DNA of 16,212 nt, from contig CAYJQZ010000009.1 in assembly GCA_964372555.1 (NCBI GenBank), positions 1-16,212 of the forward strand, read 5' to 3'. The notes under the pieces are model-generated. The model made no database searches. It saw only the letters and a program-made list of their open reading frames with translations, and had not been told where the DNA came from. This document shows positions 451-16,212 of the stretch, in pieces (within the stretch, counting starts at the first letter, position 1; each line of letters starts with the position of its first letter). Made by a program: the position numbers and the translations under genes. The DNA comes from Candidatus Woesearchaeota archaeon (GTDB taxonomy: Archaea; Nanobdellota; Nanobdellia; SCGC-AAA011-G17; GW2011-AR18).

Positions 451-471
451 TTAAGATAATAGCTCTATCTT

Positions 472-1335
472 ATGCTATTTTGGTACTTTTTGGTTATTGT
501 GGCTTTGATATGGCTTTTGTTTGCTACTATAACTGATATTAAGAAAAAAGAGGTTCCTGATTGGCTCAACTATAGCTTGGTTATTATTGGTTTAGGAAGC
601 AGGCTGATTTATTCTCTTATAACCTGGGATTTTAGCTATATTTTATTTGGTTTACTTGGTTTTGTTGTATTCTTTGTTTTTGCGCATTTAATGTATTACA
701 CAAAACAATGGGGTGGCGGTGATAGTAAGCTATTAATGGGTTTAGGCGCAATGTTTGGAAATTATGAACCTATTTTCAATGGAATAAATTTGCTTCCCTT
801 TTTAGTTACACTCTTGATAAATATATTTGTAGCTGGAACTTTGTATGGAATTTTATACTCTTTGTTTTTAGGTGTTAGAAATTGGAATAAATTTGCAACT
901 GAATTCAGAAAGAGGAATTTTATGGAGGTAAAAATAATAGGTTTGCTTATTTTTGTTTTAATTATTGTTATTTATTTTGTTTTTAGTAAAGACTTGTCTT
1001 ATTTAATAATTTTATTATTGCTACTCTTATTTTTAGCTTTTGTTTTATTACAGCTAATAAAAATAGTTGAAGATTCTTCCTTGTATAAACTAATTAATAT
1101 AAATCAATTAACTGAAGGAGACTGGTTAGTTAATGATATTGCAAAGAATGGAAAAATAATATGCAAGGTAAGAAATATAGGTTTGACTAAAAAAGATATA
1201 GTTGCTTTAAAGAAAGCTCAAATCAAAAAAGTTTTGGTGAAAGAAGGAATACCTTTTGTTCCTGGATTTTTAATTGGGTTTTTAATAAGTATAATGTGGG
1301 GTGATGTTTTGGCTATTATGGTTGCTTTTTTTTAG
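472..1335 (+). CDS. Archaeal type IV prepilin/preflagellin peptidase (A24 family, FlaK/PibD/EppA-like)
   Basis: Polytopic membrane protein. First catalytic Asp context is TITDIKKKEVPDW. Second is the GxGD motif WGGGDSKLLMGLG. The terminal helix IPFVPGFLIGF is typical of A24 peptidases. A soluble insert (EGDWLVNDIAKNGKIICKV...) sits before the last TM, as in FlaK. Confidence 0.85.
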   Translation: MLFWYFLVIVALIWLLFATITDIKKKEVPDWLNYSLVIIGLGSRLIYSLITWDFSYILFGLLGFVVFFVFAHLMYYTKQWGGGDSKLLMGLGAMFGNYEPIFNGINLLPFLVTLLINIFVAGTLYGILYSLFLGVRNWNKFATEFRKRNFMEVKIIGLLIFVLIIVIYFVFSKDLSYLIILLLLLLFLAFVLLQLIKIVEDSSLYKLININQLTEGDWLVNDIAKNGKIICKVRNIGLTKKDIVALKKAQIKKVLVKEGIPFVPGFLIGFLISIMWGDVLAIMVAFF

Positions 1336-3080: not shown

Positions 3081-3084
3081 TTTT

Positions 3085-3258
3085 CTAATTTGGTCCACAA
3101 AAAGAACAACTTGGGCATATGTATCTAGCAACTATTTTTCTACAATGAACACATCTAACTATTTCTGACTGACCACATTTAGGACATTTGAATCTAACAG
3201 AGCCAGTCAAGTTTGTTATTTTAACACTGCAGGATGTGCATGCTAATTCTTTTGCCAT
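3085..3258 (-). CDS. Small Zn-ribbon protein (COG2888-type, four CxxC pairs), the conserved archaeal neighbour of aEF-1beta
   Basis: 57 aa and not in the track. My translation is MAKELACTSCSVKITNLTGSVRFKCPKCGQSEIVRCVHCRKIVARYICPSCSFCGPN. It stops 4 nt before the aEF-1beta ATG. Confidence 0.7.
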   Translation of the reverse strand: MAKELACTSCSVKITNLTGSVRFKCPKCGQSEIVRCVHCRKIVARYICPSCSFCGPN

Positions 3259-3280
3259 TGACGTGGAAACTTTACAAATG

Positions 3281-3288
3281 TTTATAAA
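3281..3288 (-). promoter_or_regulatory. TATA box (palindromic TTTATAAA) for the Zn-ribbon/aEF-1beta operon
   Basis: 22 nt separate the box from the ATG at 3258, which is leaderless spacing. It lies in the 80-nt divergent intergenic region shared with the + strand glycosyltransferase gene. Confidence 0.4.
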
Positions 3289-3338
3289 GTTAACGAATAT
3301 AGAAAGTTTAAAGGAGGAAAAATAATTATTTCTAAATA

Positions 3339-4930: not shown

Positions 4931-4949
4931 AAAGAAAAATAGAGGATTT

Positions 4950-5975
4950 TTATACATCCTTAACGCCACTTTCTTCTATGTTAAAAACTATCTCTCCGTC
5001 AGCTAAGTGCGGACTATCAATAAGTTTTGCAACTCTCGTTCCTTTCTTTCCTTTTCTAAGATAAATTCTAGTTTGACTGTTGTGTCCCACTATATGCCCT
5101 CCAATGGCTGCAGTCGGATCTCCAAAGAAAGTGTCTGGTTTTGACATAACTTGATTTGTTACATAGACTACTAAGTTGTAAGCTGTAGCCATTTTACTTA
5201 GTACGTGCATATGTTTATTCAATTTTTGTTGTCTGTCCGCTAACATTCCCCTTCCCGTAAAATCTGCTCTAAAATGTGACATCAATGAATCCACAATTAC
5301 TAATTTCACATTTAGTCCTTCATTTTTTATTAGATCTTCAACTTTCTCTGCAAGAAGCATTTGATGATCACTGTTGAAAGCCCTAGCAACTTTAATATTT
5401 TTTAGAGTTTGTGTTGAATCAAGTCCTAATGATTCTGCCATTTGCTTAACTCTTTCTGGTCTAAATGCACCTTCAGTGTCTATGTAAACACATATTCCCT
5501 CAGCTCCGCCTTTCTCTTTAGACAACTGAACATTTACTGCAAGCTGATGTGCAATTTGTGTCTTCGATGAACCAAATTCCCCAAAACATTCTGTAATTCC
5601 ACCAGCTTCAAATCCTCCACCAAGTAAACCATCAAAGGCCTTACAACCTGTAGTAAGTTTTAATAGATTCTTTCTTCTTTCTAGTAATTCATCACCAGAT
5701 TCAAAACCCATATTCATTGTATCTCTTGCTGCTTTGATAACTTTTCTTGCTGTAGCTTCTGTTAATCCACCAGCTTCAACTAATTCTCCTGGAGATGCAA
5801 CTGCCAAAGACAATAAAGTATCAAATCCTGATTCTTTTAATTTTTCAGCTGTTGCTGGTCCTACTCCTGGCAAATCTTCAACAGAATCAATTTTAACTTT
5901 CTTAGTAATCTTTTCTTCAGGCATAACCTCTTGTATCTGTTCTGTTATTTCAATCTTTCTACTCATTTTCCTCAT
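4950..5975 (-). CDS. radA: DNA repair and recombination protein RadA
   Basis: N-terminal HhH (LPGVGPATAEKLKESGFDTL), Walker A region GEFGSSKTQ, Walker B LVIVDSLMSHFR, and the LNKHMHVLSKMA and GGHIVGHNSQTRIYLRKG blocks. An alternative start is the ATG at 5966, which has GGAGG 9 nt upstream. Confidence 0.93.
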   Translation of the reverse strand: MRKMSRKIEITEQIQEVMPEEKITKKVKIDSVEDLPGVGPATAEKLKESGFDTLLSLAVASPGELVEAGGLTEATARKVIKAARDTMNMGFESGDELLERRKNLLKLTTGCKAFDGLLGGGFEAGGITECFGEFGSSKTQIAHQLAVNVQLSKEKGGAEGICVYIDTEGAFRPERVKQMAESLGLDSTQTLKNIKVARAFNSDHQMLLAEKVEDLIKNEGLNVKLVIVDSLMSHFRADFTGRGMLADRQQKLNKHMHVLSKMATAYNLVVYVTNQVMSKPDTFFGDPTAAIGGHIVGHNSQTRIYLRKGKKGTRVAKLIDSPHLADGEIVFNIEESGVKDV

Positions 5976-6228
5976 CCTCCTCTTTTTCTTCCTGTGCTAA
6001 AAGTAAATCTTCCATTACTTTATTCATCAAAACAATTATTCTTGGTATGTCATGCTTTCTTAATTGGATTGTTGCGTCACGCCATACTCCCTGGTCATCT
6101 TTCCAGCTTTTTCTTAGGCTTACTGTTTTGAAACCTACTATTGTATCGTCTTTTATTTGTCTTTCATTAAGCCAGATTGCAGCCTCTAACTGACCTGACC
6201 TAAACTTCTGTATTGGTCTATTTCCCAT
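5959..6228 (-). CDS. Small protein with a poly-acidic C-terminal tail, co-transcribed with radA; possible PC4/YdbC-like ssDNA-binding fold
   Basis: 89 aa. GGAG is present 9-12 nt upstream of the ATG. The body (FKTVSLRKSWKDDQGVWRDATIQLRKHDIPRIIVLMNKV) resembles the beta-sheet-plus-helix PC4/YdbC pattern. The tail is EEKEEDEENE. The 3' end overlaps the radA start by 8-17 nt. Confidence 0.6.
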   Translation of the reverse strand: MGNRPIQKFRSGQLEAAIWLNERQIKDDTIVGFKTVSLRKSWKDDQGVWRDATIQLRKHDIPRIIVLMNKVMEDLLLAQEEKEEDEENE

Positions 6229-6529
6229 ATTATTTCACACTCCATTGCTTTCGCTTTTTGTTTCAAACCTTATAGAAATAACACTAGCTACGGAAACTTA
6301 CTTCTTACCTCGCTTCCTTTGTTAGGTTTTTATTTCAATGAGGTCTAAATATAGTAATAGTAGGTTTAGTATTTAAACCCTGCGCGCATAACTTGTGTCG
6401 TGTCGCGTATTTGTTTACTGAAAAATATATGTTGGAGAATACTAAAGGCCAGAAATAACCTTTTTTAATGTTTTTTGATCTAAATAATTCTACTATTTGT
6501 TTATATAAATTTATATTCTATAGTATATT

Positions 6530-7174
6530 TTATCTTATGACCTCGTAATCTTTGTTTGTTGGTTTTATATATTCTTTTATCCAGTATAACATTACTTTTA
6601 AGTATCCTTTATTATCAAATCTCCTTGTTGAGCTTATTACTGGGGTTTTTAAAAGTAGAAATTCATTTTCCTTGTTTAATTTTTTTACAAAGTTTCCATC
6701 TTCACCCTTTTTTAGATCACTGAAACCTCCCACTTTAGAAAATACTTCTTTTGTGCAGAATACAATGCCATTTGTAAATGGTAGTGGATATAAATTTTTT
6801 ATAGCCATCATAATCCTGTGCTTTAACTTATTGCTGTCTGGTTTAATTTTGCATGTCCCATAGAATTTTTTGTTTAAAGCATTAGATACTTCTTCTAGAA
6901 CTCCAAATGTTATTTTTGTGTCTGCATCTAGAAATATTAATTTATTATACTTTGATAATTTAACGCCTTCATTCTTAGCTGTTGCCGGACCTTTTCTTTC
7001 TTTAAGAATAACAACTTTATCAGCTAATTTCTCAGCCATCTTATCAGTATTATCTGTACAGCCGTCACATACAACAATTATTTCATAATCTTTAAAATTT
7101 TGAGATTTGATAGAGTTTATTGTTGCTTCTAAATAATTTTCTTCATTGCATGCAGGTATTATTATTGATATCAT
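6530..7174 (-). CDS. Family 2 glycosyltransferase (GT-A)
   Basis: ISIIIPACNEENYLE N-terminus, YEIIVVCDGCTDNT, and the DxD motif FLDADT. Confidence 0.85.
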   Translation of the reverse strand: MISIIIPACNEENYLEATINSIKSQNFKDYEIIVVCDGCTDNTDKMAEKLADKVVILKERKGPATAKNEGVKLSKYNKLIFLDADTKITFGVLEEVSNALNKKFYGTCKIKPDSNKLKHRIMMAIKNLYPLPFTNGIVFCTKEVFSKVGGFSDLKKGEDGNFVKKLNKENEFLLLKTPVISSTRRFDNKGYLKVMLYWIKEYIKPTNKDYEVIR

Positions 7175-7209
7175 CTAATAGCATGTATAGATTAAATTTA
7201 AAAACTTAC

Positions 7210-7653
7210 TCATATTATAAGTAAATACAATATACCAAAAACTATACCGAGAACTAAACCAAATAAAACGTCTATGAAATAATGTTTTTTAAGGTGCATT
7301 CTAGAATAGCCTATTAATAAAGAAATTAATATAAAAAACCCCGTGATTATTGGTTTTTTAATTTCATTTGCTAAAACTATTGCTGTATACATAGAACTCA
7401 TTGTATGCAAACTGGGAAATGATGACGCATTTATCTTTGTAAATAGATTTGTATATTCTTCTTTTTTTGGTCTTTCTTTGAAATAAAACAACCTAAGTAT
7501 AAAGACAAAGGTGTAAGCTATTATTAAACCTAAGGCAAGATAAATTCCTAGTTTGAGCTTACCAATTAAAAGCAAGAAAATTACCAGTATTGTATAAAAT
7601 ACTGCTGATCCTAGATTTGTTATTGCTGTAAAAATGTCTTTTGTTATTTTCAT
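7210..7653 (-). CDS. PAP2-family membrane phosphatase
   Basis: Three PAP2 motifs are present: RLFYFKERP (K/RxxxxxxRP), PSLH (the PSGH position) and SRMHLKKHYFIDV (SRxxxxxHxxxD). Confidence 0.8.
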   Translation of the reverse strand: MKITKDIFTAITNLGSAVFYTILVIFLLLIGKLKLGIYLALGLIIAYTFVFILRLFYFKERPKKEEYTNLFTKINASSFPSLHTMSSMYTAIVLANEIKKPIITGFFILISLLIGYSRMHLKKHYFIDVLFGLVLGIVFGILYLLII

Positions 7654-7654
7654 T

Positions 7655-8128
7655 TTATATTATACTTAATATTTTTGCTGTATAAAATATATCTAATGCA
7701 ATTATTATATAGAATATAAAGAATTCTAATGTTGCGCCCGTTGTCATTGGACCTTGAATTCTGAATGTGGATACTGGATGCAAGAAATTTATACCTTCTT
7801 TTGTTACTGCATCACCAAGTAAGTGTGCTATATATCCAATAGCTACTGTTAGTGCTAAAAAATTAAGATTGAAGTAACTTAATCCAAAAAAAAGTATGAA
7901 AACTGGAAATATTGAATGAAAAAATCCTCTATGTTTAAATATCCATGATATTGGTATTGATATGAAGAAGAATTTTCTTCCTATTTTGCTTTTAGGATGG
8001 TCTATGTCTGGTAAAGAACTAAATATTGTTACTAAAAATACAAATAGAAATGGAAAACTAACCTTAAATATACTTAATGATAATAATCCAATTAGAAATC
8101 CAAAAGCTAGATGTGTTTTAAACAGCAT
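7655..8128 (-). CDS. Membrane-bound metal-dependent hydrolase, YdjM/DUF457 family
   Basis: Contains LPDIDHP, HRGFFHS and HLLGD motifs between TM helices. Confidence 0.75.
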   Translation of the reverse strand: MLFKTHLAFGFLIGLLSLSIFKVSFPFLFVFLVTIFSSLPDIDHPKSKIGRKFFFISIPISWIFKHRGFFHSIFPVFILFFGLSYFNLNFLALTVAIGYIAHLLGDAVTKEGINFLHPVSTFRIQGPMTTGATLEFFIFYIIIALDIFYTAKILSII

Positions 8129-8129
8129 T

Positions 8130-9080
8130 TTACATATTTTCTATTTCTGCTATTAGTGCTTCTGGTTTTGGTTCTTCTAAATTATTAACAACCAATTCTA
8201 TTCTGTTGAACATTTCATTTTTTGTAACCTTACCACGAAGAAGCAACTGTTTGCCTAGAACCTCTTTTTTTATATCTTCGAAATTTTCTTTGTTTGATAG
8301 TAATTTGGTTGCTTGATCTCTAAATAAAACTGCTCTTATATTCCCAGTACCGTCGTCAAAGAAGATATTTACTATTGGTACTTGTTTAGGCGGTACATTG
8401 CCATGTTCTTGGCAATTGAAAATTTCTCCCTGCTGGAATACTTTCCTATTGCATACTGGACACGCGTTATAATGTTTTGGTTCAAATATTTGAACCACTG
8501 TACCTAAAATTTCTACAAATTCTTCTTCATTTAAATCTTTAATTTGTTTTCTTTTTGTTGTGTTTAACTTAACTTCACCAATTGTTTCGTTCTCAGGATT
8601 TATTATTAATTGGGATTTACTTCCTAAATGTAGTTCTTTGAAGCCATTATTATTTTGTTTTGAATAAGCATTATTTACTTTTACTATGTCTCCTTCTTTA
8701 ATTTCTTTAGTTAAATCAATAAGTTTTTCATCCCAAATTACTATTCTTATTGATCCGGTTTCATCCCCCATAAATAATGAACCAATTCTGCCTTGTTTAT
8801 CCTTTTTTTGAAAAGATTTAATTTCATTCACATTTATTACCTTACCAAGAACATTCACAGAATTTAGGCCTACTTCTACTTGCTTTATCTTTAAGGTTTT
8901 ATTTGTTCCATCAAATAATTTTACGTTCAATTCATTTGCAACTATGTGTGCTGCACCTTCTTTAGATATTAAGTCTTGTAGTTCTATTAACTTTTTATTT
9001 ATTTTCTCTTCTATATCTTGTTTAGAAAGTCCTGTTGTCTCTACAATTTTGTTTATGATTGTGTTGTAACCAAGAATCAT
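8130..9080 (-). CDS. Replication protein A (archaeal ssDNA-binding protein, two OB folds plus a Zn finger)
   Basis: N-terminal helical domain (LISKEGAAHIVANELNV). OB fold 1 (VNVLGKVINV...GRIGSLFMGDETGSIRIVIWD). OB fold 2 is interrupted by CPVCNRKV-x10-CQEHG (a C-x2-C...C-x2-H zinc ribbon), followed by FFDDGTGNIRAVLFRD. Confidence 0.85.
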   Translation of the reverse strand: MILGYNTIINKIVETTGLSKQDIEEKINKKLIELQDLISKEGAAHIVANELNVKLFDGTNKTLKIKQVEVGLNSVNVLGKVINVNEIKSFQKKDKQGRIGSLFMGDETGSIRIVIWDEKLIDLTKEIKEGDIVKVNNAYSKQNNNGFKELHLGSKSQLIINPENETIGEVKLNTTKRKQIKDLNEEEFVEILGTVVQIFEPKHYNACPVCNRKVFQQGEIFNCQEHGNVPPKQVPIVNIFFDDGTGNIRAVLFRDQATKLLSNKENFEDIKKEVLGKQLLLRGKVTKNEMFNRIELVVNNLEEPKPEALIAEIENM

Positions 9081-9116: not shown

Positions 9117-10634
9117 TTATGCATAGTTCGGCGTAACTGTTGCAGATGCACTAGCCATAGTATCTTCACTAAAGTAACATTTATTTGCTTGTTTTGCTTG
9201 GTCATAACCAGCAGAGAGGTATTCATAATGCCACCATTCTCTTCCGTAATTTGCCCAGCCTGCTCTGCACATTATATTACGCAAGTCTCTTATGTCTTGT
9301 TGCGAAGTTCCTTTTTTAAGCTGTACATCTAAAGCACGTCCAGAAACATGCCTACATACAGAATAACGAGGTAAGTCTTCTATAATTGCTAAAGTATTTA
9401 GATCATTTTGTGAAAGCCAATTTCTTGCAGCTTCTATGCGCTGTTGCGTTGTGCCTTCTACGTTTGGTACTCTTTTTTCTAATTCGTATTTATCTTCTAT
9501 TCCAATAGGGCCACATGCTTCAACTCTTCCTGCTAAAAATGCTAAGAATGCGTTACGTTGTGATTCTGATGAACGCGCTGCATCGTTAATTATTATATGT
9601 TGAGATGGATTTGATATAACTTGCCTTATCCTTTCTATCTGCCCAACACTTTCTTGTTTGGCGCAACATGTTGATTTTAAACATTTAACTTCTTCATCTT
9701 GTGGTATTGGAATTAGGCTTTCAGCTAAACCTCTGCATTGGCCTGATGTTGCTATGGCTGTTTCTTCTATAATATTTTCTTCTGCATTAGAATAAAACAA
9801 TTCTTCTTCATAATCATATGTTTCTGTATCTTGATATTCTGGTATTGGTTGTGATGGATTAAATGCTAATTTTATATTCCCTTTGTTTGTCTCTAAGTCT
9901 ACTTTAATTAATTCACCAGACCTAACTATATTTATTGTTGGGAAATATTGTGTTAGTTTAGATTGACATTCACTAAATTCTTTATCTATACAATTTTCTT
10001 GTATCGTGTAGTACAAGTCTCTATATACTGAAAGTGGCGGTCTTGTTGTGCTTGTTAATGGTTTCATAACTAAAACAGAACCTTCTGCGCTTTCTACCGG
10101 TAAGTTTACATCTGATAATGTAATTATTAATTTACTGCCAGAGAATTCTGTATTTATTATATTAGAATTGTTTACATTTTCTGTATATATTTGAGCATAT
10201 TTAATTTGGGTTTCTGGGTTCTCCATATTTAGATCATTTTTATAATCTAGCTGTGTGTATTTACTTTCATATTTATTTATTTTATTTTTAAATTTATTTT
10301 TGAATTGTGATATAAACTCTTGGCTTGGATTTAACACTGGGCATGAATTCCATAATACATAGCCATCTCCTGTTTTTTCGCATCTATTGTTTTCAGAATA
10401 GCCGCCATTGTTTGCTAATGTTTCCCAAGTTTCTTTAGAAGCATATTTTGCAGATAGATCTAAATAAATGTTTATTTTCTCAGATTCATCATAATTCTTA
10501 ATTAAATTTACTGCTCTTAATCCAACTAGGTCTTGTTTGTTTGCTTCCGTTGTACTTATTATGTAAAATAATACAGAGAGTATTACTGCTGTGAATATTA
10601 CGAATATTGGTAAGAAAACTCCTTTTTTATTCAT
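9117..10634 (-). CDS. Class III signal peptide (pilin-like) protein with a C-terminal M15 VanY-like / LAS zinc D-Ala-D-Ala-type peptidase domain
   Basis: Start set at the ATG at 10634 (MNKKGVFLPIFVIFTAVILSVLFYII), which has GAGGA 9 nt upstream. The track start at 10679 is a TTG inside the previous gene. C-terminal motifs are NDAARSSESQRNAF, then CRHVSGRALDV (HxxGxAxD, His codon at 9348-9350), then REWWHYEY (ExxH). Confidence 0.8.
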   Translation of the reverse strand: MNKKGVFLPIFVIFTAVILSVLFYIISTTEANKQDLVGLRAVNLIKNYDESEKINIYLDLSAKYASKETWETLANNGGYSENNRCEKTGDGYVLWNSCPVLNPSQEFISQFKNKFKNKINKYESKYTQLDYKNDLNMENPETQIKYAQIYTENVNNSNIINTEFSGSKLIITLSDVNLPVESAEGSVLVMKPLTSTTRPPLSVYRDLYYTIQENCIDKEFSECQSKLTQYFPTINIVRSGELIKVDLETNKGNIKLAFNPSQPIPEYQDTETYDYEEELFYSNAEENIIEETAIATSGQCRGLAESLIPIPQDEEVKCLKSTCCAKQESVGQIERIRQVISNPSQHIIINDAARSSESQRNAFLAFLAGRVEACGPIGIEDKYELEKRVPNVEGTTQQRIEAARNWLSQNDLNTLAIIEDLPRYSVCRHVSGRALDVQLKKGTSQQDIRDLRNIMCRAGWANYGREWWHYEYLSAGYDQAKQANKCYFSEDTMASASATVTPNYA

Positions 10635-11215
10635 TATATTTTCCTCAGTGCTATGTCTGCTCTTTCTATATTTGTACAATCAAAACAACCAAAGTACATG
10701 GTTACTGTTGCTGTTTCTCCGTTCTCTAGCGGAATAGACATAGATTGAGCTAAATGGCTGTAACTTCCTACCTCAAATACTTCTGGTTCTCCAAGACGCA
10801 AGAAATTATTTTGCCCTATCTTTATATTAAAGTTCCATGTTGCTTCTTTGCTCTTTCTTGTTGCTTCGCTTGTAGCAATTATGCTTGCTGGTTGTCCTTC
10901 TACAACTGGTAATTTGCTTAATAATGTTTTGAGCTCTTCATTTAATTCATCTTTATAATTTTCATCTTTGTAAGCCAATGATATTAATTCTCCTACTGTT
11001 AATGCATTGTTATTTTGTTGTATTGACGTTGGTGACCTAATAATTGCGTTTAATTCTGAACTAGAACTGTATGCTTCTGGTCTTATAACTAAATTTGGTG
11101 ATTGCTTAATTCCTATCACAAAAAAGATAGTGCCAAAAAAAATTAAGATGAGTACTAGCAAGACAACTGACTGAAAAAAATACAGTGGATAACTAATTCC
11201 TTTTTTATTAAACAA
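10634..11215 (-). CDS. Class III signal peptide (pilin-like) protein, unknown function
   Basis: TTG start at 11215 with AGGTGAT (a strong anti-16S match) 5 nt upstream. N-terminus is (M)FNKKGISYPLYFFQSVVLLVLILIFFGTIFFV. There is a C-terminal CFDC pair. It overlaps both neighbours. Confidence 0.7.
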   Translation of the reverse strand: MFNKKGISYPLYFFQSVVLLVLILIFFGTIFFVIGIKQSPNLVIRPEAYSSSSELNAIIRSPTSIQQNNNALTVGELISLAYKDENYKDELNEELKTLLSKLPVVEGQPASIIATSEATRKSKEATWNFNIKIGQNNFLRLGEPEVFEVGSYSHLAQSMSIPLENGETATVTMYFGCFDCTNIERADIALRKI

Positions 11216-11684
11216 GTTTTATCACCTGTGTAATCATGTGGCCAGTTTTTATTTCTCCATTTTGGAAGTATGAAACTAATTCTTTTCTTGTGAGACATTT
11301 GTATTTCTCTAAATTGCTACAGATTGGAAGATAGGATTCCTGACTAATATCTAGATTGCTTGCTGATGTTAATGTATTTCCGTCTATATCATCTACAAGA
11401 ATAACATAACCAAATCCCTCTTTTGAAAAACATCTGTTTAATGTATCAAAATTAATTTTTTGGATGTCTATAATCCCTAGATGTGTTCTAGTTCCGTCAT
11501 TGTAAGCTAAGCAAGAATCAGAATACATTAAGTTTCTAGTTAGTAAAAAAGTTTCGAGGCCTATAGTATCTATGTCTTCGTTTAAGTATCTTAATGTTAC
11601 TATTAAAATAAAGATTGCTACAACTATTACAATCATTAAGTTAACTGCTATCTTTACTATATCCAATATTCCTTTTTTATGCAT
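11208..11684 (-). CDS. Class III signal peptide (pilin-like) protein, unknown function
   Basis: N-terminus MHKKGILDIVKIAVNLMIVIVVAIFILIV. Four Cys in the extracellular part. It has 8-nt overlaps with both neighbours. Confidence 0.7.
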   Translation of the reverse strand: MHKKGILDIVKIAVNLMIVIVVAIFILIVTLRYLNEDIDTIGLETFLLTRNLMYSDSCLAYNDGTRTHLGIIDIQKINFDTLNRCFSKEGFGYVILVDDIDGNTLTSASNLDISQESYLPICSNLEKYKCLTRKELVSYFQNGEIKTGHMITQVIKLV

Positions 11685-12045
11685 TTTTTCTTATTTTTAT
11701 AACATTATTCTGTAATTTTTCTTCTGTAATTTCTATGAGGCTATTTCTTGCACAATGAAATGCTGCAGGTGTTCTTTTTTCTTCTATATAATTTGCTTTT
11801 ACTAAGCACACTTCTTTGTTTATGTCTATTTCAATGCCTTGCTTTGTATTATATTTGTATTCTAATTGGTGGGGTGCAGGTAATGCTGCATCTCTAAGAA
11901 ATGCATAGTCTCTTGATTCTACTCTTAAATTGTGGAGGTGATCGTCTTTTATTCTTGCTGTACCAGCGAGCAGAACTGCTGTTACTATTAAAAGAAAGAA
12001 TAATTCTGTTAATAGCTCTGTTGATATTAATAATCCTTTTTTCAT
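11677..12045 (-). CDS. Class III signal peptide (pilin-like) protein, unknown function
   Basis: Start set at the ATG at 12045 (MKKGLLISTELLTELFFLLIVTAVLLAG), 1 nt after the upstream stop. The track start at 12177 is a TTG inside the SLT gene. Two Cys are present. Confidence 0.65.
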   Translation of the reverse strand: MKKGLLISTELLTELFFLLIVTAVLLAGTARIKDDHLHNLRVESRDYAFLRDAALPAPHQLEYKYNTKQGIEIDINKEVCLVKANYIEEKRTPAAFHCARNSLIEITEEKLQNNVIKIRKNA

Positions 12046-12046
12046 T

Positions 12047-13705
12047 TTATGATGCTGCCTGTAATTCATTATAATATCTTCTTGCAGTCGTAGCGTATGC
12101 TCTTGTTTCATTGCAACAATAATTATTATCATCAATAACGCCTGCCCTGCCCGGTCCTGCATTGTAGCCTGCTGCAATATTTTCTACTGTAAGCGGGATT
12201 CCTCTTCTTGCTAATATTTTTTTAATATAAACAATGTAATCTATTGCTGCGACTACTGCTTTTCTTTCATTAAATCTCTCATCATACAAAGCAAGCTGTG
12301 TTGTTGGTGTTGCACTTCTAAATCTATCAAGCGCTGCCCCATAATTTCTATCACATCCACTAGTAAATTGCACTCCCTGTCCTGTTCTTGGATCTGTTAC
12401 TGGATCTAATACTCTTAAACCAAGGCCTTTGCCTGTGGTTGGCATTATCTGCATTAACCCTGCAGCACCACAATGAGATACTGCATATGGATCCCAGGTA
12501 TTACCTGTCTCTATTTTTACTATAGAAATAACTAATGAGGGATCAACTCCCTTTTCTTCTGCTTTTTGTCTTATGAATGGCATTAGTTCTGACTGTAGTT
12601 CTGATAATGAACTTGGTGTTTGCGCTGCAGTTAATTTACTTATAGCAAAATTATTTGAGAAATCATTAAATGTTGCACTACAAATATATTCTGTTGCTAT
12701 TTCTATGCACCGCAATGGAACCTGTAGCCAGGTATTTCCTTTTTTGTAATAAAGACCTAGGTTTCTTTCTTGTTGCGGTAATTTGTCTACCTTTGTTTTT
12801 GATATTGCTAGTTCTATTTCTGCCCTGCTTACTAAATTTGGATCTATGCTATTGTGATTTTCTATATATCTCTCTGCTGCTTCGAAATTTTCTGCTGTTG
12901 GCTTTGATCCTAGTTCCATAAACTGCGGAGCAGGATAGAAATGACCTGGTTCTCTATTTGTTTCTGTTGTAGTTGTATCTGGCGGTACTGCTAGATCTAA
13001 ATCAAAAAGTGTTGTGAGGCCTTCAATATTAGGAACGCCTTCTGGAACTATAAAGCCTGCTTCTTTTACTTTTACAATTGGTATGTAAGATTTTATTCTA
13101 ATAGTTTCAAAGGTTACAGATAATTTATTTAACAATCCAGTTACGTCTACGGGAGTAACACCACTTCTAGTATAAACAATAGGTTTTGGTGCTTTTTCTC
13201 CTGTTGGACTATTTACTCTAATGGTTTTGTCATCCTTTACAAAACTAAGTACTGTGTATGTTTCTAGGTCTTCAGTAGAAAACTGTTCTGAATTTACTTC
13301 GTCAAAGTTTTTGAATTTATAACAATCATAGGGATCACATTCTACGTTGCCGGTTATTATATTTCTATCAATGTCACACAAACATATTGTTGCTTCTCTT
13401 GGTTGTACTCCTGGGTAGGGTATTTCATTTCCAACTTGCCTTAAACTAAAACTTACTATATTACAATCATTATTATAAAACAAGAACTGAGATGAAGGTG
13501 CACCAGAATCTAGATCCTTAAGTATTTCCTTTAAGCCATTACTACCATCCCAAGATTTACTATTTGAGCAACTTGCTTTATCTGGTAGTAGTATGTCTGA
13601 AAATATTGGTGCTTTCAATACAATTATAATTATTAATAATACAGCGACTATTAAACTAAAAAGTGCATATGTCTGTATATCTATTGACCCCTTTTTATTT
13701 TTCAT
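12047..13705 (-). CDS. Class III signal peptide (pilin-like) protein with a C-terminal SLT/GH23 lytic transglycosylase domain
   Basis: N-terminus MKNKKGSIDIQTYALFSLIVAVLLIIIIV. The C-terminal sequence VISIVKIETGNTWDPYAVSHCGAAGLMQIMPTT...AGYNAGPGR matches the SLT signature E[ST]-x5-P-x-A-x-S-x2-GA-x-GLMQ plus AYNAG. The catalytic Glu codon is at 12509-12511. Confidence 0.85.
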   Translation of the reverse strand: MKNKKGSIDIQTYALFSLIVAVLLIIIIVLKAPIFSDILLPDKASCSNSKSWDGSNGLKEILKDLDSGAPSSQFLFYNNDCNIVSFSLRQVGNEIPYPGVQPREATICLCDIDRNIITGNVECDPYDCYKFKNFDEVNSEQFSTEDLETYTVLSFVKDDKTIRVNSPTGEKAPKPIVYTRSGVTPVDVTGLLNKLSVTFETIRIKSYIPIVKVKEAGFIVPEGVPNIEGLTTLFDLDLAVPPDTTTTETNREPGHFYPAPQFMELGSKPTAENFEAAERYIENHNSIDPNLVSRAEIELAISKTKVDKLPQQERNLGLYYKKGNTWLQVPLRCIEIATEYICSATFNDFSNNFAISKLTAAQTPSSLSELQSELMPFIRQKAEEKGVDPSLVISIVKIETGNTWDPYAVSHCGAAGLMQIMPTTGKGLGLRVLDPVTDPRTGQGVQFTSGCDRNYGAALDRFRSATPTTQLALYDERFNERKAVVAAIDYIVYIKKILARRGIPLTVENIAAGYNAGPGRAGVIDDNNYCCNETRAYATTARRYYNELQAAS

Positions 13706-13744
13706 GTTATTTCAATTATTTAAGAATTAGTGGGTATTTATTTC

Positions 13745-13918
13745 TTATGGTGTTATATTTGATATTAATGCTGATCCTGTTTGTGCTTGGTCCCTTAAAT
13801 TAGAGCCAACTAAATTTCCATATTTTATAACGAAAAAAGCCACTAGGGCTAGGACAATTAAAATTAAAATCGCTATAACTAAGGTTTCAAGTGATAAAGA
13901 AACGGCTTTTTTATTCAT
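13745..13918 (-). CDS. Mini-pilin (57 aa) with a class III signal peptide
   Basis: Not in the track because it is under 60 aa. My translation is MNKKAVSLSLETLVIAILILIVLALVAFFVIKYGNLVGSNLRDQAQTGSALISNITP. Its ATG lies 1 nt after the upstream stop (TGAAATG). Confidence 0.6.
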   Translation of the reverse strand: MNKKAVSLSLETLVIAILILIVLALVAFFVIKYGNLVGSNLRDQAQTGSALISNITP

Positions 13919-13919
13919 T

Positions 13920-14327
13920 TCAACATTGGATACCAGAGCAGTCTACATTAAGACTTCCTGTTTGAGTTATGCCTCTTCTTCCATCATCTGCTGTCAATTC
14001 TGGATTAACACTGGGTGCACATGACATTCTCTTAGGTTTTGTTTCTGGGTTTGCATCATCATCAACTAAAAATGTTTGTTTACAATAACCTGATTCTTTT
14101 TGATTTGTAGAAGGCAGATTCCCTGCACTTTCACATAAACTAGTGCATGTTTGTATTGCTAAATCTTTTGCTTGGCCAGCACTGCCACCAAATAAATCTC
14201 TAACTTTCCCAACAATGCTACCAAAACCGCCTGCAAAGAAAGCAATTAGAATGACAAGCACAACTAAAACAATTATTGCTATAATAATAACATTCATCGG
14301 CATTCCTTGTGCTTTTTTGTTAAACAT
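13920..14327 (-). CDS. Pilin-like protein (135 aa) with a class III signal peptide and a Cys-rich C-terminal domain; candidate major subunit
   Basis: N-terminus MFNKKAQGMPMNVIIIAIIVLVVLVILIAFFAG. Six Cys in the globular part. It is the only gene inside the block with its own TATA box plus an SD-like AGGTG. Confidence 0.75.
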   Translation of the reverse strand: MFNKKAQGMPMNVIIIAIIVLVVLVILIAFFAGGFGSIVGKVRDLFGGSAGQAKDLAIQTCTSLCESAGNLPSTNQKESGYCKQTFLVDDDANPETKPKRMSCAPSVNPELTADDGRRGITQTGSLNVDCSGIQC

Positions 14328-14365
14328 TCATCACACCTTTTAATTAGTGATTATTATAATGTTTC

Positions 14366-14373
14366 TATATAAA
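14366..14373 (-). promoter_or_regulatory. Internal TATA box (TTTATATA), with a downstream AGGTGTGAT Shine-Dalgarno, for the 135-aa pilin-like gene
   Basis: It lies in the 54-nt gap between 14382 and 14327, 38 nt upstream of the ATG. That leaves a ~15-nt leader carrying GGTG, which is complementary to the 16S 3' end. Confidence 0.45.
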
Positions 14374-14381
14374 CCTTTTGG

Positions 14382-16046
14382 TTAGCTTATACATAAAAGT
14401 TGCTGACATTCGTTGTTGCTATAAGCTGATTGATATATTGCCTCTGCTATGATATTCTGTCCTGCTGCATTTGGATGTAAATGATCTCCGCTATCAAACT
14501 CTGGCTTTAGTGCTCCTGCCCCATTATTGAGTGCAGCATATATATTAACAGACATATCTACATTCTCTGCTTCAGTTAAGATCCAATTATTTATACTAAT
14601 AATTTTATTTTGTGTGTATTGATTACATGTCACTGTAGATGATTGATAACCGCCACAAGGAGTTAATGTCAAAGCTATGACTCTCATATTATTTTGTTTT
14701 CCCTTTAGGTACATCTCTGCCAAATTATCTTTTATATCTTGTTCTGGCCCTGCAATGTTGTTTATTCCGCCTTGTATTATTACATCTTTATAATTCTTAG
14801 ATGTTATATCCACATCAAACCTAGCAGACATTGCTGCTGTTCCTTGCCCTTCAATACCATATTCATTGAAAAGTTGAGAACCACAAAGCGAATTTAATCT
14901 TTGGACATATATTCCTGATGCAGTAATTGAATCACCAATAACGCCTGCATCACATTTTGCTGAACCTGTTGGAATTAATGGGGGGTTTAGACCTAGTCTG
15001 CCTCTTTCTTCTGCTATTCTTCTTTGCTGTGCTTGTTCTAGTGTAACAGGGAGCAAACATAAATTATTTTCAAACGGATAGAAATCAATTTCTACATAAT
15101 CATTAAAATTCAATGTTGACAATGGTTGCTGGTCTGCTTGTGCTGTGTTTCTATAGTCTGAAAAACCGCAAGGCGTCTTTGTAAGTTGTTGTGATTTTAC
15201 TTCTTCGTCTTTATAATTAAGTACAAATTTATTATTTTTTAAGTTTATTGAAAAGTCAGCTATTGTTTTTAGTACTGCTGTTGTATATTTACATTCATCC
15301 CTAACATTTGTTTCTAAGCATTTATTTACTATGGATAATAATTTGTCAAATTCTTCAGATGCTATAGTTGCTCCTTCTAATTTTTCACATTTTTTGAGTC
15401 CTGTTGTTGTTGCTTTTGGAACTAGTGCTGATTTTTCGTTGCTAAATTTGTATAATGCTATTCCACTTTCAACATTTATTTCATCACTCCCACTTACATC
15501 TGTAGCAGAATAAATAGTATCTTCTTCAACAAACTGTCTTTCAACTGGTGTAAAGTCTAGTATGTTTAATTTTCCTCCTTCCTGTATTGGATAGCTTAAT
15601 CCTGAATTTTTAAAATATGTAGTGTCTGGTGCATCAATTGGTGTTGTTTTGGTTGTTACTCCACTCGAGAATTCAACTTGTTCTATACTATTTGTTCCAA
15701 AAAATGCTGCTTCATCTACTTCTGCTCCACTGTGAACACGTATTGCTGTGGCCTTATCTCTATTAACAATTTCCATAATATATAATTCCGGTGTTTTAGG
15801 ATAACTAATTTCACAGTAGCATTCTGCTGATAGAGAGAGTTTACATTCTCTATAACTATTTACAAATTCATCATAGAATGGAAGGTCTCTGTTTACGCCT
15901 AATTCTTGTCTTTCCCTGTCTGCTTGACTTTCCCCTAACAAATTTGGTATGGTATTGGATAGAATTATATATACCCAATACAATAAACCAATTACTGCTA
16001 TTATTATCAAAAATAACATTATTGGCTTTCTTAAAGACAATTCCAT
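14382..16046 (-). CDS. N-terminally anchored secreted protein with a C-terminal SGNH/GDSL hydrolase domain
   Basis: N-terminus MELSLRKPIMLFLIIIAVIGLLYWVYIIL is a signal anchor without the KK[GA] motif. SGNH blocks are VIGDSITASG (block I, Ser codon at 14928-14930), YGIEGQG (block II), IQGGINN (block III) and SGDHLHPN (block V, DxxH). Confidence 0.8.
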   Translation of the reverse strand: MELSLRKPIMLFLIIIAVIGLLYWVYIILSNTIPNLLGESQADRERQELGVNRDLPFYDEFVNSYRECKLSLSAECYCEISYPKTPELYIMEIVNRDKATAIRVHSGAEVDEAAFFGTNSIEQVEFSSGVTTKTTPIDAPDTTYFKNSGLSYPIQEGGKLNILDFTPVERQFVEEDTIYSATDVSGSDEINVESGIALYKFSNEKSALVPKATTTGLKKCEKLEGATIASEEFDKLLSIVNKCLETNVRDECKYTTAVLKTIADFSINLKNNKFVLNYKDEEVKSQQLTKTPCGFSDYRNTAQADQQPLSTLNFNDYVEIDFYPFENNLCLLPVTLEQAQQRRIAEERGRLGLNPPLIPTGSAKCDAGVIGDSITASGIYVQRLNSLCGSQLFNEYGIEGQGTAAMSARFDVDITSKNYKDVIIQGGINNIAGPEQDIKDNLAEMYLKGKQNNMRVIALTLTPCGGYQSSTVTCNQYTQNKIISINNWILTEAENVDMSVNIYAALNNGAGALKPEFDSGDHLHPNAAGQNIIAEAIYQSAYSNNECQQLLCIS

Positions 16047-16047
16047 T

Positions 16048-16203
16048 TTATGAACCGAACCTGAATATATCTTTTAATTTATCTAATATAACTCCTGATT
16101 TTCCTCGAAATAGAAATACAATTCCAATTATTATTATTAAAATTATTAGAGCTAATATTAACTTAATTATGATATCGAGTTCTAAATCTGCTTTTTTGTT
16201 CAT
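16048..16203 (-). CDS. Mini-pilin (51 aa) with a class III signal peptide
   Basis: Not in the track. My translation is MNKKADLELDIIIKLILALIILIIIIGIVFLFRGKSGVILDKLKDIFRFGS. Its stop lies 1 nt before the next ATG (TAAAATG). An in-frame ATG at 16212 (MQRMNKKA...) is possible, so the true start and the upstream context are cut by the window edge. Confidence 0.55.
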   Translation of the reverse strand: MNKKADLELDIIIKLILALIILIIIIGIVFLFRGKSGVILDKLKDIFRFGS

Positions 16204-16212
16204 GCGTTGCAT

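What the first reader, a model, noticed from the sequence alone, without database searches (positions are those of the whole stretch)
9117..16212. Nine-gene pilin-like operon carrying a three-enzyme murein-degrading kit in an archaeon with no murein
SEEN: nine co-directional minus-strand genes are packed with 1-nt gaps or 1- to 8-nt overlaps. Eight begin with the same class III signal-peptide pattern followed by a ~20-residue hydrophobic helix: MNKKG, (M)FNKKG, MHKKG, MKKG, MKNKKG, MNKKA, MFNKKA and MNKKA. On the plus strand this appears as a recurring ccttttttat/gcttttttgt...cat string at 10621, 11201, 11671, 12036, 13690, 13906, 14311 and 16190. The three large proteins end in domains with apparently intact catalytic motifs for SLT/GH23, M15 VanY-like and SGNH hydrolases. 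ESTABLISHED: these families cut the glycan strand, cut the stem peptide or cross-link, and remove O-acetyl groups from bacterial peptidoglycan, respectively. Lytic transglycosylases cannot act on O-acetylated MurNAc, which is why bacteria pair them with SGNH Ape esterases. Archaea also use class III signal peptides to display non-pilin cargo in pilus-like surface assemblies, as in the Sulfolobus sugar-binding bindosome. INFERENCE: the flanking genes (RPA, RadA, aEF-1beta, CarS) are archaeal, so the enzymes have no self substrate. The block therefore looks like a pilus- or surface-displayed 'murein hydrolasome' for attacking, attaching to or feeding on bacterial cells. I cannot verify from here whether this architecture has been described before.
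Basis: partly seen in the sequence, partly recalled or inferred. Interest (0 to 1): 0.9.

Follow-up and report, generated by a model that had tools for sequence, protein, structure and literature searches.

The report
Archaeal pilus genes carrying bacterial-wall-cutting enzymes
A tiny DPANN-type archaeon has a conserved pilus-like gene cluster in which three subunits carry enzymes that cut bacterial cell wall, and relatives swap these enzyme modules among the same subunits, which points to a surface device aimed at bacteria.

Summary
Nine co-directional minus-strand genes fill 9117-16212. Eight start with M-x(0-2)-[KR]-K-[GA] followed by a hydrophobic helix, and this motif occurs nowhere else in the six-frame translation of the window. 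The three large proteins end in an M15/VanY-like domain, an SLT/GH23 domain and an SGNH domain, all with intact catalytic residues.

New here: the cluster is conserved and lies beside the RPA gene in at least 12 other Woesearchaeota/Nanoarchaeia contigs. On the five long contigs it follows a T2SSE-type ATPase and a roughly 720-aa polytopic membrane protein. A prepilin peptidase gene lies in the window itself.

The enzyme domains are optional C-terminal add-ons. Some relatives have bare scaffolds; others carry one to five modules (SLT, M15, M23, Amidase_2, SGNH) shuffled among the same three scaffolds. Of 17 extended members of the g5 scaffold family, 14 carry a wall-hydrolase module and none carries any other Pfam domain.

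Best reading: modular pilin-like subunits display murein hydrolases against bacteria.

Caveats:
- The SGNH carrier has no class III motif.
- The SGNH domain resembles carbohydrate esterases, not demonstrably Ape1.
- No pilin family HMM matches.
- Filament incorporation and enzyme activity are untested.

DPANN murein hydrolases are already published. The pilin-scaffold delivery appears not to be.

The parts
9117..10634 (-). g1, 505 aa. MNKKG class III-like N-terminus, a conserved scaffold (aa 1-271, window 9822-10634), a disordered linker (aa 272-291), and a C-terminal M15/VanY-like zinc peptidase module (aa 292-505, window 9117-9761). Motifs: AARSSESQR 352-360, RHVSGRALD 428-436, EWWHYE 466-471.
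   Evidence: AlphaFold model with pLDDT 81.8. Foldseek to VanY 5hnm/5zhf and LdcB 4mph/4ox3, probability 1.0. Motif positions.
10634..11215 (-). g2, 193 aa. TTG start, (M)FNKKG N-terminus plus a hydrophobic helix. Small pilin-like subunit, translationally coupled to g1 (1-nt overlap) and g3 (8-nt overlap).
   Evidence: Orthologues in 7 lineages keep the [KR]-[GA] N-terminus.
11208..11684 (-). g3, 158 aa. MHKKG N-terminus. Small pilin-like subunit.
11677..12045 (-). g4, 122 aa. MKKG N-terminus; the true start is inside a longer mechanical ORF. Small pilin-like subunit.
12047..13705 (-). g5, 552 aa. MKNKKG N-terminus, a Cys-rich conserved scaffold (aa 1-357), and a C-terminal SLT/GH23 lytic transglycosylase module (aa 358-552, window 12047-12634). 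Catalytic Glu399 in KIETG, GLMQ 416-419, GYNAG 513-517.
   Evidence: Scaffold-only homologues end at aa ~357.
13745..13918 (-). g6, 57 aa. MNKKA N-terminus. A very small pilin-like protein: a helix plus a short tail.
13920..14327 (-). g7, 135 aa. MFNKKA|QGMPMNVIIIAIIVLVVLVILIAFFAGGF. The most conserved subunit (51-70% identity; the N-terminal 35 residues are nearly invariant; 6 conserved Cys). Candidate major subunit.
14382..16046 (-). g8, 554 aa. Plain N-terminal membrane anchor with no [KR]-[GA] motif, a conserved scaffold (aa 1-~350), and a C-terminal SGNH esterase module (aa 365-554, window 14382-14954). Ser373 in GDSIT, Gly400, Asn429/430 in GGINN, Asp521 and His524 in DHLH.
16048..16203 (-). 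g9, 51 aa from the MNKKA start. An in-frame ATG (MQRM...) lies at the last bases of the window. Very small pilin-like protein. The cluster runs on beyond the window end.
   Evidence: In relatives the next upstream genes are a ~400-aa class III-type protein, a ~720-aa polytopic protein and a T2SSE ATPase.
472..1335 (+). Prepilin/preflagellin peptidase (Peptidase_A24, FlaK/PibD-like; GGGD motif). Candidate processing enzyme for the eight class III-like N-termini, 8 kb from the cluster.
   Evidence: Pfam PF01478, E=4.3e-15. NCBIfam FlaK_Arch, E=3.3e-17, below the equivalog cut-off.

Best explanation
The block is the distal part of a type IV filament (pilus-like) gene cluster of a Woesearchaeota/Nanoarchaeia (DPANN) archaeon.

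Eight subunits have class III-type N-termini, which the A24 prepilin peptidase encoded in the window would cut after [KR]-[GA]. g7 is the likely main subunit. g9, g6, g4, g3 and g2 are small minor subunits. g5 and g1 are 'modular' subunits: a conserved scaffold joined by a linker to an exchangeable C-terminal enzyme. A ninth, membrane-anchored scaffold (g8) carries a third enzyme.

In this organism the three cargo modules are a lytic transglycosylase, which cuts the glycan strand; an M15B VanY/LdcB-like peptidase, which cuts the stem peptide; and an SGNH carbohydrate O-acetylesterase.

Because the archaeon should have no murein, these enzymes are held on its surface, at or near the filament, to open, grip or digest the wall of a bacterial host or prey.

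Shown:
- domain identities and intact catalytic residues
- the conserved cluster and its ATPase context in relatives
- modular gain, loss and shuffling restricted to wall-hydrolase classes

Inferred:
- cleavage of the N-termini by the peptidase
- incorporation of the subunits into a filament
- murein as the substrate
- bacteria as the target
For: 1. Domains. Pfam SLT, M15 and GDSL_2. Matches to solved MltC/EmtA with the catalytic Glu aligned. VanY/LdcB fold, probability 1.0. SGNH fold with all four catalytic blocks invariant in the family.

2. N-termini. The [KR]K[GA]-plus-hydrophobic-helix pattern is found only at these gene starts in the window. It is conserved in 8 orthologue groups across 8 lineages. 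The g1 model has a 70-residue N-terminal helix followed by an alpha/beta domain and a disordered linker before the enzyme.

3. Machinery. Peptidase_A24 lies in the window. A T2SSE ATPase and a ~720-aa polytopic protein lie directly upstream, on the same strand, in L002, L007, L013, L018 and L021.

4. Modularity. Orthologues of g5, g1 and g8 exist as bare scaffolds of 331, 274 and 360 aa in L002.
- L013 has only g1+M15.
- L007 has g5+M15 and g1+Amidase_2.
- L015 has g8+M15, g5+SLT+M23 and g1+SGNH+M15.
- L017 has g8+SGNH and g5+SLT+Amidase_2.
- L018 has g5+SLT+M23.
- L021 has g5+SLT.

5. Family census. A search of 1.84 billion representative proteins with the g5 scaffold profile finds 89 members. 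Of the 17 that are 500 aa or longer, 14 carry SLT, Amidase_2, M23 or M15, and none carries any other Pfam domain.

6. Coupling. The g5-g4-g3-g2-g1 junctions (+1, -8, -8, -1 nt) suggest translational coupling and a stoichiometric complex.

7. The large proteins are Cys-rich (12, 12 and 14 Cys), as expected for extracellular proteins.

8. Literature. Archaeal peptidoglycan hydrolases kill bacteria experimentally and are 'particularly prominent and diverse' in Nanoarchaeota (PMC12352652).
Against: - No subunit matches a pilin HMM or a solved pilin.
- The ~720-aa membrane protein has no T2SSF/FlaJ match.
- For the window itself the ATPase region is not available, because the contig ends about 400 bp further on.
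- g8 has no class III motif and its scaffold could not be modelled (pLDDT below 50).
- The proteins have no recognisable cell-wall-binding domain.
- M15 scores only at the Pfam threshold.
- SGNH substrates are broad, and the nearest structures are xylan and sialate esterases.
- GH23 also includes some chitinases (own knowledge).
- No expression, activity, host or imaging data exist.
- Absence of murein in this organism is assumed from its taxonomy, not checked on a full genome.
Confidence: 0.6

Rival explanations
1. Anchored or secreted scavenging enzymes, not part of a filament. The class III-like N-termini serve only as export and membrane-anchor signals, as for the sugar-binding proteins of the Sulfolobus bindosome. 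The hydrolases digest free peptidoglycan debris near the cell surface to supply amino sugars and amino acids to an auxotrophic cell. No specific attack on living bacteria is involved.
For: - No pilin HMM or pilin structure match.
- g8 is a plain membrane-anchored protein.
- There is no cell-wall-binding domain, so nothing suggests tight targeting.
- PMC9723730 discusses recycling of cell compounds by Woesearchaeota.
- PibD-type peptidases are known to process non-pilin substrates (PMC4858521).
Against: - The enzymes sit on scaffolds that are conserved, co-ordered and translationally coupled with six small pilin-like proteins.
- In relatives the scaffolds follow a T2SSE ATPase in the same operon.
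- Bare scaffolds persist without any enzyme, so the scaffolds have a structural role of their own.
- Feeding and attack are not mutually exclusive.
Confidence: 0.25
2. Self-directed or archaeon-directed wall remodelling. The hydrolases make room for the filament in the producer's own envelope, as VirB1, FlgJ and EtgA do in bacteria. Alternatively, they act on a non-murein polymer of an archaeal host, such as pseudomurein, glycosylated S-layer or exopolysaccharide.
For: - Bacterial secretion and pilus operons often encode a dedicated lytic transglycosylase (own knowledge).
- The SGNH domain is nearest to carbohydrate esterases with non-murein substrates.
- All cultivated DPANN so far have archaeal hosts (PMC11291902 abstract).
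Against: - Several complete operons work without any hydrolase (L002, L008, L009), so the enzymes are not needed for assembly.
- The module repertoire (SLT, M15B, M23, Amidase_2) is the classic murein set. It includes N-acetylmuramoyl-L-alanine amidase, whose bond does not exist in pseudomurein (own knowledge).
- PMC12352652 finds archaeal peptidoglycan hydrolases almost absent from pseudomurein producers.
Confidence: 0.08
3. Assembly artefact or contamination: a bacterial hydrolase-bearing fragment joined to an archaeal contig near 9080-9117, or hydrolase domains mis-joined to archaeal genes.
For: None found. Total G+C of the enzyme-coding parts is somewhat higher (0.35-0.39) than that of the scaffolds (0.29-0.33).
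Against: - The same g1-RPA junction and the same gene order occur in independent assemblies from NCBI, JGI, ENA and Logan.
- Scaffold-enzyme fusions recur in-frame in many samples.
- GC3 of the enzyme domains (0.19-0.22) matches the rest of the window.
Confidence: 0.01

Closest known systems
Modular type IV pilins of bacteria (e.g. Streptococcus sanguinis PilB with a vWA module and PilC with a lectin module; Raynaud et al. 2021, PMC8179133)
   Same: An N-terminal pilin-type carrier is joined by a short linker to a functional C-terminal module. The modules are exchanged during evolution, giving many architectures. They are thought to sit at the filament tip.
   Different: - The present proteins are archaeal and match no pilin signature.
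- The cargo is catalytic (murein hydrolases) rather than adhesive.
- Up to three carriers in one operon are loaded, and some carry two enzymes in tandem.
- That survey covered bacteria only; 'archaea', 'hydrolase' and 'peptidoglycan' do not occur in its text.
Archaeal peptidoglycan hydrolases used against bacteria (Strock et al. 2025, PMC12352652) and the large murein-like lytic transglycosylase proteins of Woese-/Pacearchaeota (Castelle et al. 2021, PMC8204110; Vigneron et al. 2022, PMC9723730)
   Same: Archaea without murein encode SLT, M23 and other wall hydrolases. Nanoarchaeota are especially rich in them. The proposed uses are attack on, or attachment to, bacteria.
   Different: - Strock et al. 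required a cell-wall-binding domain and looked only at Sec/Tat signals. The proteins here have neither.
- Castelle's fam00969 proteins reach 3,000 aa.
- None of these papers mentions pili, pilins or class III signals.
- Here the hydrolases are modules on subunits of a conserved pilus-like operon.
Sulfolobus bindosome and other non-pilin class III signal-peptide proteins (Szabo et al. 2007, as cited in PMC4858521)
   Same: Class III signal peptides on functional, non-filament cargo, processed by a PibD/FlaK-type peptidase. A dedicated ATPase and membrane protein are present.
   Different: The bindosome cargo is solute-binding proteins for uptake. Here the cargo is cell-wall hydrolases fused to conserved scaffolds and encoded among many small pilin-like genes.
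Dedicated lytic transglycosylases of bacterial secretion, pilus and flagellar systems (VirB1, FlgJ, EtgA, and the R64 PilT-type transglycosylase)
   Same: A GH23/SLT enzyme is encoded inside the operon of an envelope-spanning filament machine.
   Different: Those enzymes cut the producer's own wall to let the machine through, and they are separate proteins. Here the producer has no murein, the enzymes are fused to the subunits, and they are dispensable in related operons.
CPR (Patescibacteria) proteins that fuse a T4SS pilin domain to an SGNH esterase (P0020 from Candidatus Falkowbacteria, and P0021)
   Same: These are the nearest non-archaeal relatives of the g8 SGNH module (32-33% identity). 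They also attach it to a pilin-type N-terminal domain (PF18895). Both groups are ultra-small presumed episymbionts.
   Different: The carrier is different (VirB2-type T4SS pilin against an archaeal scaffold), the domain of life is different, and no multi-enzyme operon was seen there.

Membership tests
GH23 / SLT family lytic transglycosylase (g5 C-terminus) | Match to the SLT domain model above the curated threshold | tested here: met
   PF01464, 47.9 bits against a cut-off of 21.3, E=1.2e-12. phmmer hits to MltC 9vi7 (E=7e-10) and to EmtA.
GH23 / SLT family lytic transglycosylase (g5 C-terminus) | Catalytic Glu in the E-S/T motif, plus the GLMQ and AYNxG motifs | tested here: met
   KIE399TG aligns with the IES of MltC. 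GLMQ lies at 416-419 and GYNAG at 513-517.
GH23 / SLT family lytic transglycosylase (g5 C-terminus) | Produces 1,6-anhydro-MurNAc from murein | not testable with these tools
   Needs enzyme assays on sacculi with LC-MS.
Peptidase M15 (LAS fold; VanY/LdcB-type) (g1 C-terminus) | Match to an M15 model above the threshold | tested here: inconclusive
   PF01427, 27.4 bits against a cut-off of 27, with only 40 residues matched. PF02557 (VanY) is not hit in g1, but it is hit in the distant homologue P0016.
Peptidase M15 (LAS fold; VanY/LdcB-type) (g1 C-terminus) | Zinc-ligand and catalytic pattern H-x6-D ... E-x-x-H, with an upstream Arg | tested here: met
   R354, H429-x6-D436 and E466-W-W-H469 are conserved in all M15-bearing homologues.
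Peptidase M15 (LAS fold; VanY/LdcB-type) (g1 C-terminus) | Fold similarity to solved M15B enzymes | tested here: met
   Foldseek against the PDB: VanY-B 5hnm/5zhf/6a6a (E=3e-4, probability 1.0, TM about 0.5), LdcB 4mph/4jid/4ox3, and Hedgehog 2ibg. Phage 'Peptidase M15B' hits in BFVD.
SGNH hydrolase superfamily (g8 C-terminus) | HMM match, the four conserved blocks (GDS, G, GxN, DxxH), and the fold | tested here: met
   PF13472, 48.7 bits against a cut-off of 32.9. S373, G400, N429, D521 and H524 are invariant in the alignment. Foldseek E=1e-12, TM 0.75 to 3p94.
Ape1-type peptidoglycan O-acetylesterase | Closest relatives by sequence or structure are peptidoglycan O-acetyl esterases or transferases | tested here: not met
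   The best hits are Bacteroides GDSL proteins, acetylxylan esterase 7toh, sialate O-acetylesterase and a PVA esterase. PatB ranks only 40th, and Ape1 is not in the top 50. A role on O-acetylated murein remains possible. The support is fusion to M15 (P0007) and M23 (P0019) and co-occurrence with SLT in 3 operons.
Archaeal type IV pilin / class III signal-peptide protein | Short charged leader ending in [KR]-[GA], followed by about 20 hydrophobic residues | tested here: met
   Met for 8 of 9 genes, unique to these starts in the window, and conserved across lineages. Not met for g8.
Archaeal type IV pilin / class III signal-peptide protein | Match to a known pilin or archaellin family model, or to a solved pilin | tested here: not met
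   No Pfam or NCBIfam pilin family at E<=0.1. The g7 family profile has no PDB hit at E<=10. g9 has only a weak DUF7554 hit.
Archaeal type IV pilin / class III signal-peptide protein | Cognate prepilin peptidase, assembly ATPase and platform protein | tested here: inconclusive
   - Peptidase: present in the window (PF01478).
- ATPase: the window ends before it, but PF00437 lies directly upstream in 5 relatives.
- Platform: a ~720-aa polytopic protein lies in the expected place but has no T2SSF match.
Archaeal type IV pilin / class III signal-peptide protein | Cleavage by the peptidase and polymerisation into a filament | not testable with these tools
   Needs biochemistry, or imaging of an enrichment or culture.
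Modular pilin (carrier + linker + effector module) | Carrier exists on its own in relatives; the effector follows a flexible linker and varies | tested here: met
   Bare scaffolds in L002, L008 and L009. Disordered linker at 272-291 in the g1 model. Module shuffling.

The most novel reading that the evidence does not exclude
Woesearchaeota/Pacearchaeota-type DPANN archaea build a pilus-like filament whose tip complex (g5-g4-g3-g2-g1) is a multi-enzyme 'drill'. It cuts glycan strands, stem peptides and O-acetyl groups of bacterial peptidoglycan, letting the archaeon penetrate or dock onto bacterial hosts. The enzyme set is swapped rapidly to match the host's wall chemistry. This would be the first molecular device for archaeon-on-bacterium episymbiosis or predation, and a new function (wall-degrading catalysis) for type IV filaments.
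Probability: 0.3. Interest if true: 0.85.

Novelty: new variant of a known kind. Interest (0 to 1): 0.66.

Why it matters
No host of any Woesearchaeota or Pacearchaeota is known, and all cultivated DPANN live on other archaea. A conserved surface machine that carries only murein-specific enzymes is concrete, testable evidence that part of this very large group interacts physically with bacteria.

It also suggests a delivery route for the many archaeal peptidoglycan hydrolases that have no Sec or Tat signal (68% in PMC12352652). It extends the 'modular pilin' principle to archaea and to catalytic cargo.

The module inventory of each operon could serve as a predictor of the target wall type. The enzymes are candidates for new antibacterials.

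Tried and rejected
- Exact-sequence look-up of the window's own proteins to extend the contig found nothing on record. Cluster look-up gave no names or accessions. The region beyond 16212 could therefore not be read, and the source taxon is inferred from relatives labelled Woesearchaeota or Nanoarchaeia.
- Pilin identity could not be shown by homology. Pfam, NCBIfam and PDB profile searches of the small subunits gave nothing.
- The ~720-aa candidate platform protein gave no T2SSF/FlaJ hit.
- The g8 scaffold could not be modelled (pLDDT below 50).
- The g1 scaffold had no PDB fold match.
- The hypothesis of an obligatory SLT-SGNH pairing was tested on the operons at hand and not upheld. SGNH is present in 3 of 6 SLT operons.
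- The chimera hypothesis was rejected on synteny and GC3.
- No tRNA or Rfam element lies in the window.
- The literature searches run here found no description of pilin-fused murein hydrolases in archaea. The searched library does not hold most subscription-journal papers.

Full report
**1. Observation**

The window is about 31% G+C throughout. Positions 1-9080 carry plainly archaeal housekeeping genes: HIT, aEF-1beta, a GT1 glycosyltransferase, CDP-archaeol synthase, RadA, GT2, YdjM and RPA. At 472-1335 on the plus strand there is a Peptidase_A24 prepilin/preflagellin peptidase.

From 9117 to the window end, nine minus-strand genes follow one another. I call them g1 (nearest RPA) to g9. They are the reverse complements of MNKKG, (M)FNKKG, MHKKG, MKKG, MKNKKG, MNKKA, MFNKKA and MNKKA.

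In a six-frame translation of the whole window, the pattern M-x(0-2)-[KR]-K-[GA] followed by a strongly hydrophobic stretch occurs seven times. All seven are at these gene starts; the eighth gene starts with TTG. Chance is excluded.

The spacing is -1, -8, -8, +1, +39, +1, +54, +1 nt. The packing is therefore tight within three sub-blocks, (g9,g8), (g7,g6) and (g5,g4,g3,g2,g1), but not everywhere.

**2. The three enzyme domains**

- **g5, aa 358-552.** It matches SLT (PF01464, E=1.2e-12) and solved MltC and EmtA, with the catalytic Glu aligned (KIE399TG). It also has the GLMQ and GYNAG motifs.
- **g8, aa 365-554.** It matches Lipase_GDSL_2 (E=1.6e-12). Ser373, Gly400, Asn429, Asp521 and His524 are invariant among its relatives. 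This part of the AlphaFold model is confident. It superposes on SGNH carbohydrate esterases at E=1e-12 and TM 0.75.
- **g1, aa 292-505.** This was the weakest call (PF01427, 27.4 bits against a threshold of 27). A model with mean pLDDT 81.8 matches VanY-B and the LdcB L,D-carboxypeptidases with probability 1.0, and also Hedgehog, i.e. the LAS/M15B fold. The pattern R354, H429-x6-D436, E466-x-x-H469 is conserved in all homologues.

All three assignments therefore stand.

The specific claim that the SGNH domain is an Ape-type peptidoglycan esterase does not stand on similarity. The top structures are xylan, sialate and other carbohydrate esterases. PatB appears at rank 40, and Ape1 does not appear in the top 50.

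**3. What the relatives show**

The g5 protein has homologues of about 40% identity that are only 331-342 aa long and end exactly where the SLT domain begins. The contigs that encode them carry the same cluster in the same order, next to RPA, YdjM and GT2, with RadA, CarS and GT1 further on.

On the five long contigs (L002, L007, L013, L018, L021) the cluster is preceded, on the same strand, by:
- a T2SSE-family ATPase (PF00437, in some lineages split by an intein);
- a polytopic membrane protein of about 720 aa;
- a further class III-type protein of about 240-410 aa.

All nine window genes have orthologues in these loci. The [KR]-[GA] N-termini are conserved in the eight groups that have them. 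The g8 group never has one. g7 is the most conserved, at 51-70% identity, with an almost invariant KKAQGMPMNVIIIAIIVLVVLVILIAFFAGGF. It is my candidate for the main subunit.

The enzyme domains are optional and mobile. The operons examined carry the following modules.

| Locus | Modules |
|---|---|
| L002, L008, L009 | none; bare scaffolds of 331, 274 and 360 aa |
| L013 | M15 on the g1 scaffold |
| L007 | M15 on the g5 scaffold (50% identical to the window's g1 module); Amidase_2 on the g1 scaffold (E=1.2e-24) |
| L015 | M15 on g8; SLT+M23 on g5; SGNH+M15 on g1 |
| L017 | SGNH on g8; SLT+Amidase_2 on g5 |
| L018 | SLT+M23 on g5 |
| L020 | SLT+Amidase_2 on g5 |
| L021, L022 | SLT on g5 |

A profile of the g5 scaffold, searched against 1.84 billion representative proteins, finds only 89 members. 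About 28 of these are bare and full-length, and 17 are 500 aa or longer. Of those 17, 14 carry SLT, Amidase_2, M23 or M15, alone or in pairs. Three carry nothing recognisable, and none carries any other Pfam domain.

The restriction of the cargo to murein-hydrolase classes is the strongest argument that murein is the substrate. It also gives indirect support to a wall-related role for the SGNH module. That module is fused in single polypeptides to M15 (P0007) and to M23 (P0019), and it occurs in the operon only together with SLT. However, only 3 of 6 SLT operons have it, so the pairing is not obligatory.

**4. Artefact check**

The g1-RPA junction and the scaffold-enzyme fusions recur in independent assemblies from four data sources. 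GC3 of the enzyme-coding parts (0.19-0.22) is the same as that of the scaffolds and housekeeping genes (0.15-0.23). A bacterial/archaeal chimera is excluded.

**5. Mechanism**

I read the locus as the subunit part of a type IV filament system.

- Eight subunits would be processed by the A24 peptidase.
- The translationally coupled g5-g4-g3-g2-g1 set would form a stoichiometric complex. By analogy with the minor-pilin complexes of bacterial type IV pili and type II secretion, I place it at the filament tip or base. This analogy is my own knowledge and is an inference.
- g5 and g1 behave as modular subunits in the sense of Raynaud et al. (PMC8179133): a carrier, a flexible linker (disordered at 272-291 in the g1 model) and an effector.
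- g8 is a membrane-anchored scaffold that holds a third enzyme at the cell surface.

The organism belongs to a group with no murein, and related operons work without any enzyme. The hydrolases therefore cannot be needed for assembly. They most likely act on bacterial walls, to attach to, breach or digest a bacterial host or prey.

Not shown:
- cleavage of the N-termini;
- filament incorporation;
- enzyme activities;
- the identity of the target;
- absence of murein genes in the full genome.

Negative results that weaken the 'pilin' label:
- no pilin HMM or solved pilin matches;
- no T2SSF match for the presumed platform protein;
- no fold match for the scaffolds, and two fold libraries were unavailable.

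**6. Rivals**

- **Surface-anchored scavenging enzymes that use class III signals only for export (bindosome-like).** This remains possible (0.25) and partly overlaps with the main reading.
- **Self-directed or archaeal-host-directed remodelling.** This is unlikely (0.08), given the dispensability of the modules and their murein-specific classes.
- **Artefact.** Refuted.

**7. Comparison with what is known**

Murein-like lytic transglycosylases in Woese- and Pacearchaeota have been noted since 2013-2015. They have been proposed to mediate attachment to, or predation on, bacteria (PMC8204110, PMC9723730). Strock et al. 2025 (PMC12352652) showed experimentally that archaeal peptidoglycan hydrolases kill bacteria and found them especially diverse in Nanoarchaeota. 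That survey required a wall-binding domain and considered only Sec and Tat signals, and 68% of its hits had no recognised signal.

None of these papers mentions pili, pilins or class III signals. Neither the 2016 census of archaeal type IV pili (PMC4858521) nor a 2026 preprint on archaeal type IV filament machineries (10.64898/2026.04.22.720090) mentions peptidoglycan or hydrolases. A three-term search for Woesearchaeota, pilin and peptidoglycan returned nothing.

The enzymes and the ecological idea are therefore known. The coupling of exchangeable murein-hydrolase modules to the subunits of a conserved pilus-like operon appears to be undescribed, within the limits of the searchable library.

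The nearest bacterial relatives of the SGNH module are CPR proteins that fuse it to a T4SS pilin domain. This is a striking parallel in the other group of ultra-small episymbionts.

**8. Verdict**

- Observation: confirmed.
- Interpretation: supported, with the caveats above.
- Novelty: new variant of a known kind.
- Interest: 0.66.

Noticed in passing
window 472-1335 (+): A prepilin/preflagellin peptidase gene (Peptidase_A24, FlaK-like, GGGD motif) lies 8 kb from the cluster. It is the obvious candidate for processing the eight class III-like N-termini.
   Followed up: partly
L002 1-1776, L013 1-1799 (relatives): The T2SSE ATPase upstream of the cluster is interrupted by an intein with a LAGLIDADG endonuclease in some lineages (L001/L002, L013) but not in others (L007, L018, L021).
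   Followed up: no
L007 8202-9213: A nucleotidyltransferase/HEPN gene pair (PF18765/PF01909 and PF05168; a toxin-antitoxin-like MNT-HEPN module) is inserted inside the pilus-like operon between the g8 and g7 orthologues of one relative.
   Followed up: no
P0020, P0021 (bacterial proteins): The closest non-archaeal relatives of the SGNH module are CPR/Patescibacteria proteins (one from Candidatus Falkowbacteria). They combine a T4SS pilin domain (PF18895) with the SGNH esterase. This is a parallel 'pilin + esterase' design in the other ultra-small episymbiont radiation.
   Followed up: partly
P0083: A 2,317-aa protein contains 12 repeats of the Cys-rich N-terminal sub-domain of the g5 scaffold (profile positions 43-168). 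PEGA, PKD and CarboxypepD_reg hits in the same Pfam scan may belong to this protein, but per-protein results were not obtained. If so, that sub-domain is an independent extracellular module.
   Followed up: no
L016 10001-12388 (P0019): Another archaeal contig (TFIIB, S6e, S8e) encodes a stand-alone 795-aa protein that fuses SGNH and Peptidase_M23. It lies outside any pilus-like cluster, next to large vWA and CarboxypepD_reg surface proteins.
   Followed up: no
P0011, P0015: Two homologues of about 700 aa have a class III-like N-terminus, a middle region with an alpha/beta-hydrolase-like GHSGA motif, and the M15 module. They may carry a further esterase type. No Pfam hit was found for the middle region.
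   Followed up: no
window 5959-6228 (-): An 89-aa ORF with no annotation lies directly upstream of RadA. ORFs of similar size (90-94 aa) lie in the same position before RadA in L001/L002 and L021, which suggests a small RadA-linked gene, but no sequence comparison was made.
   Followed up: no
window 3339-4388 (+) and 4385-4930 (+): A GT1 glycosyltransferase (PF13528, with a weak MurG-like GT28 C-terminal hit) overlaps the start of CDP-archaeol synthase by 4 nt. The two genes are also neighbours in L001/L002 and L021, on opposite strands in L021.
   Followed up: no
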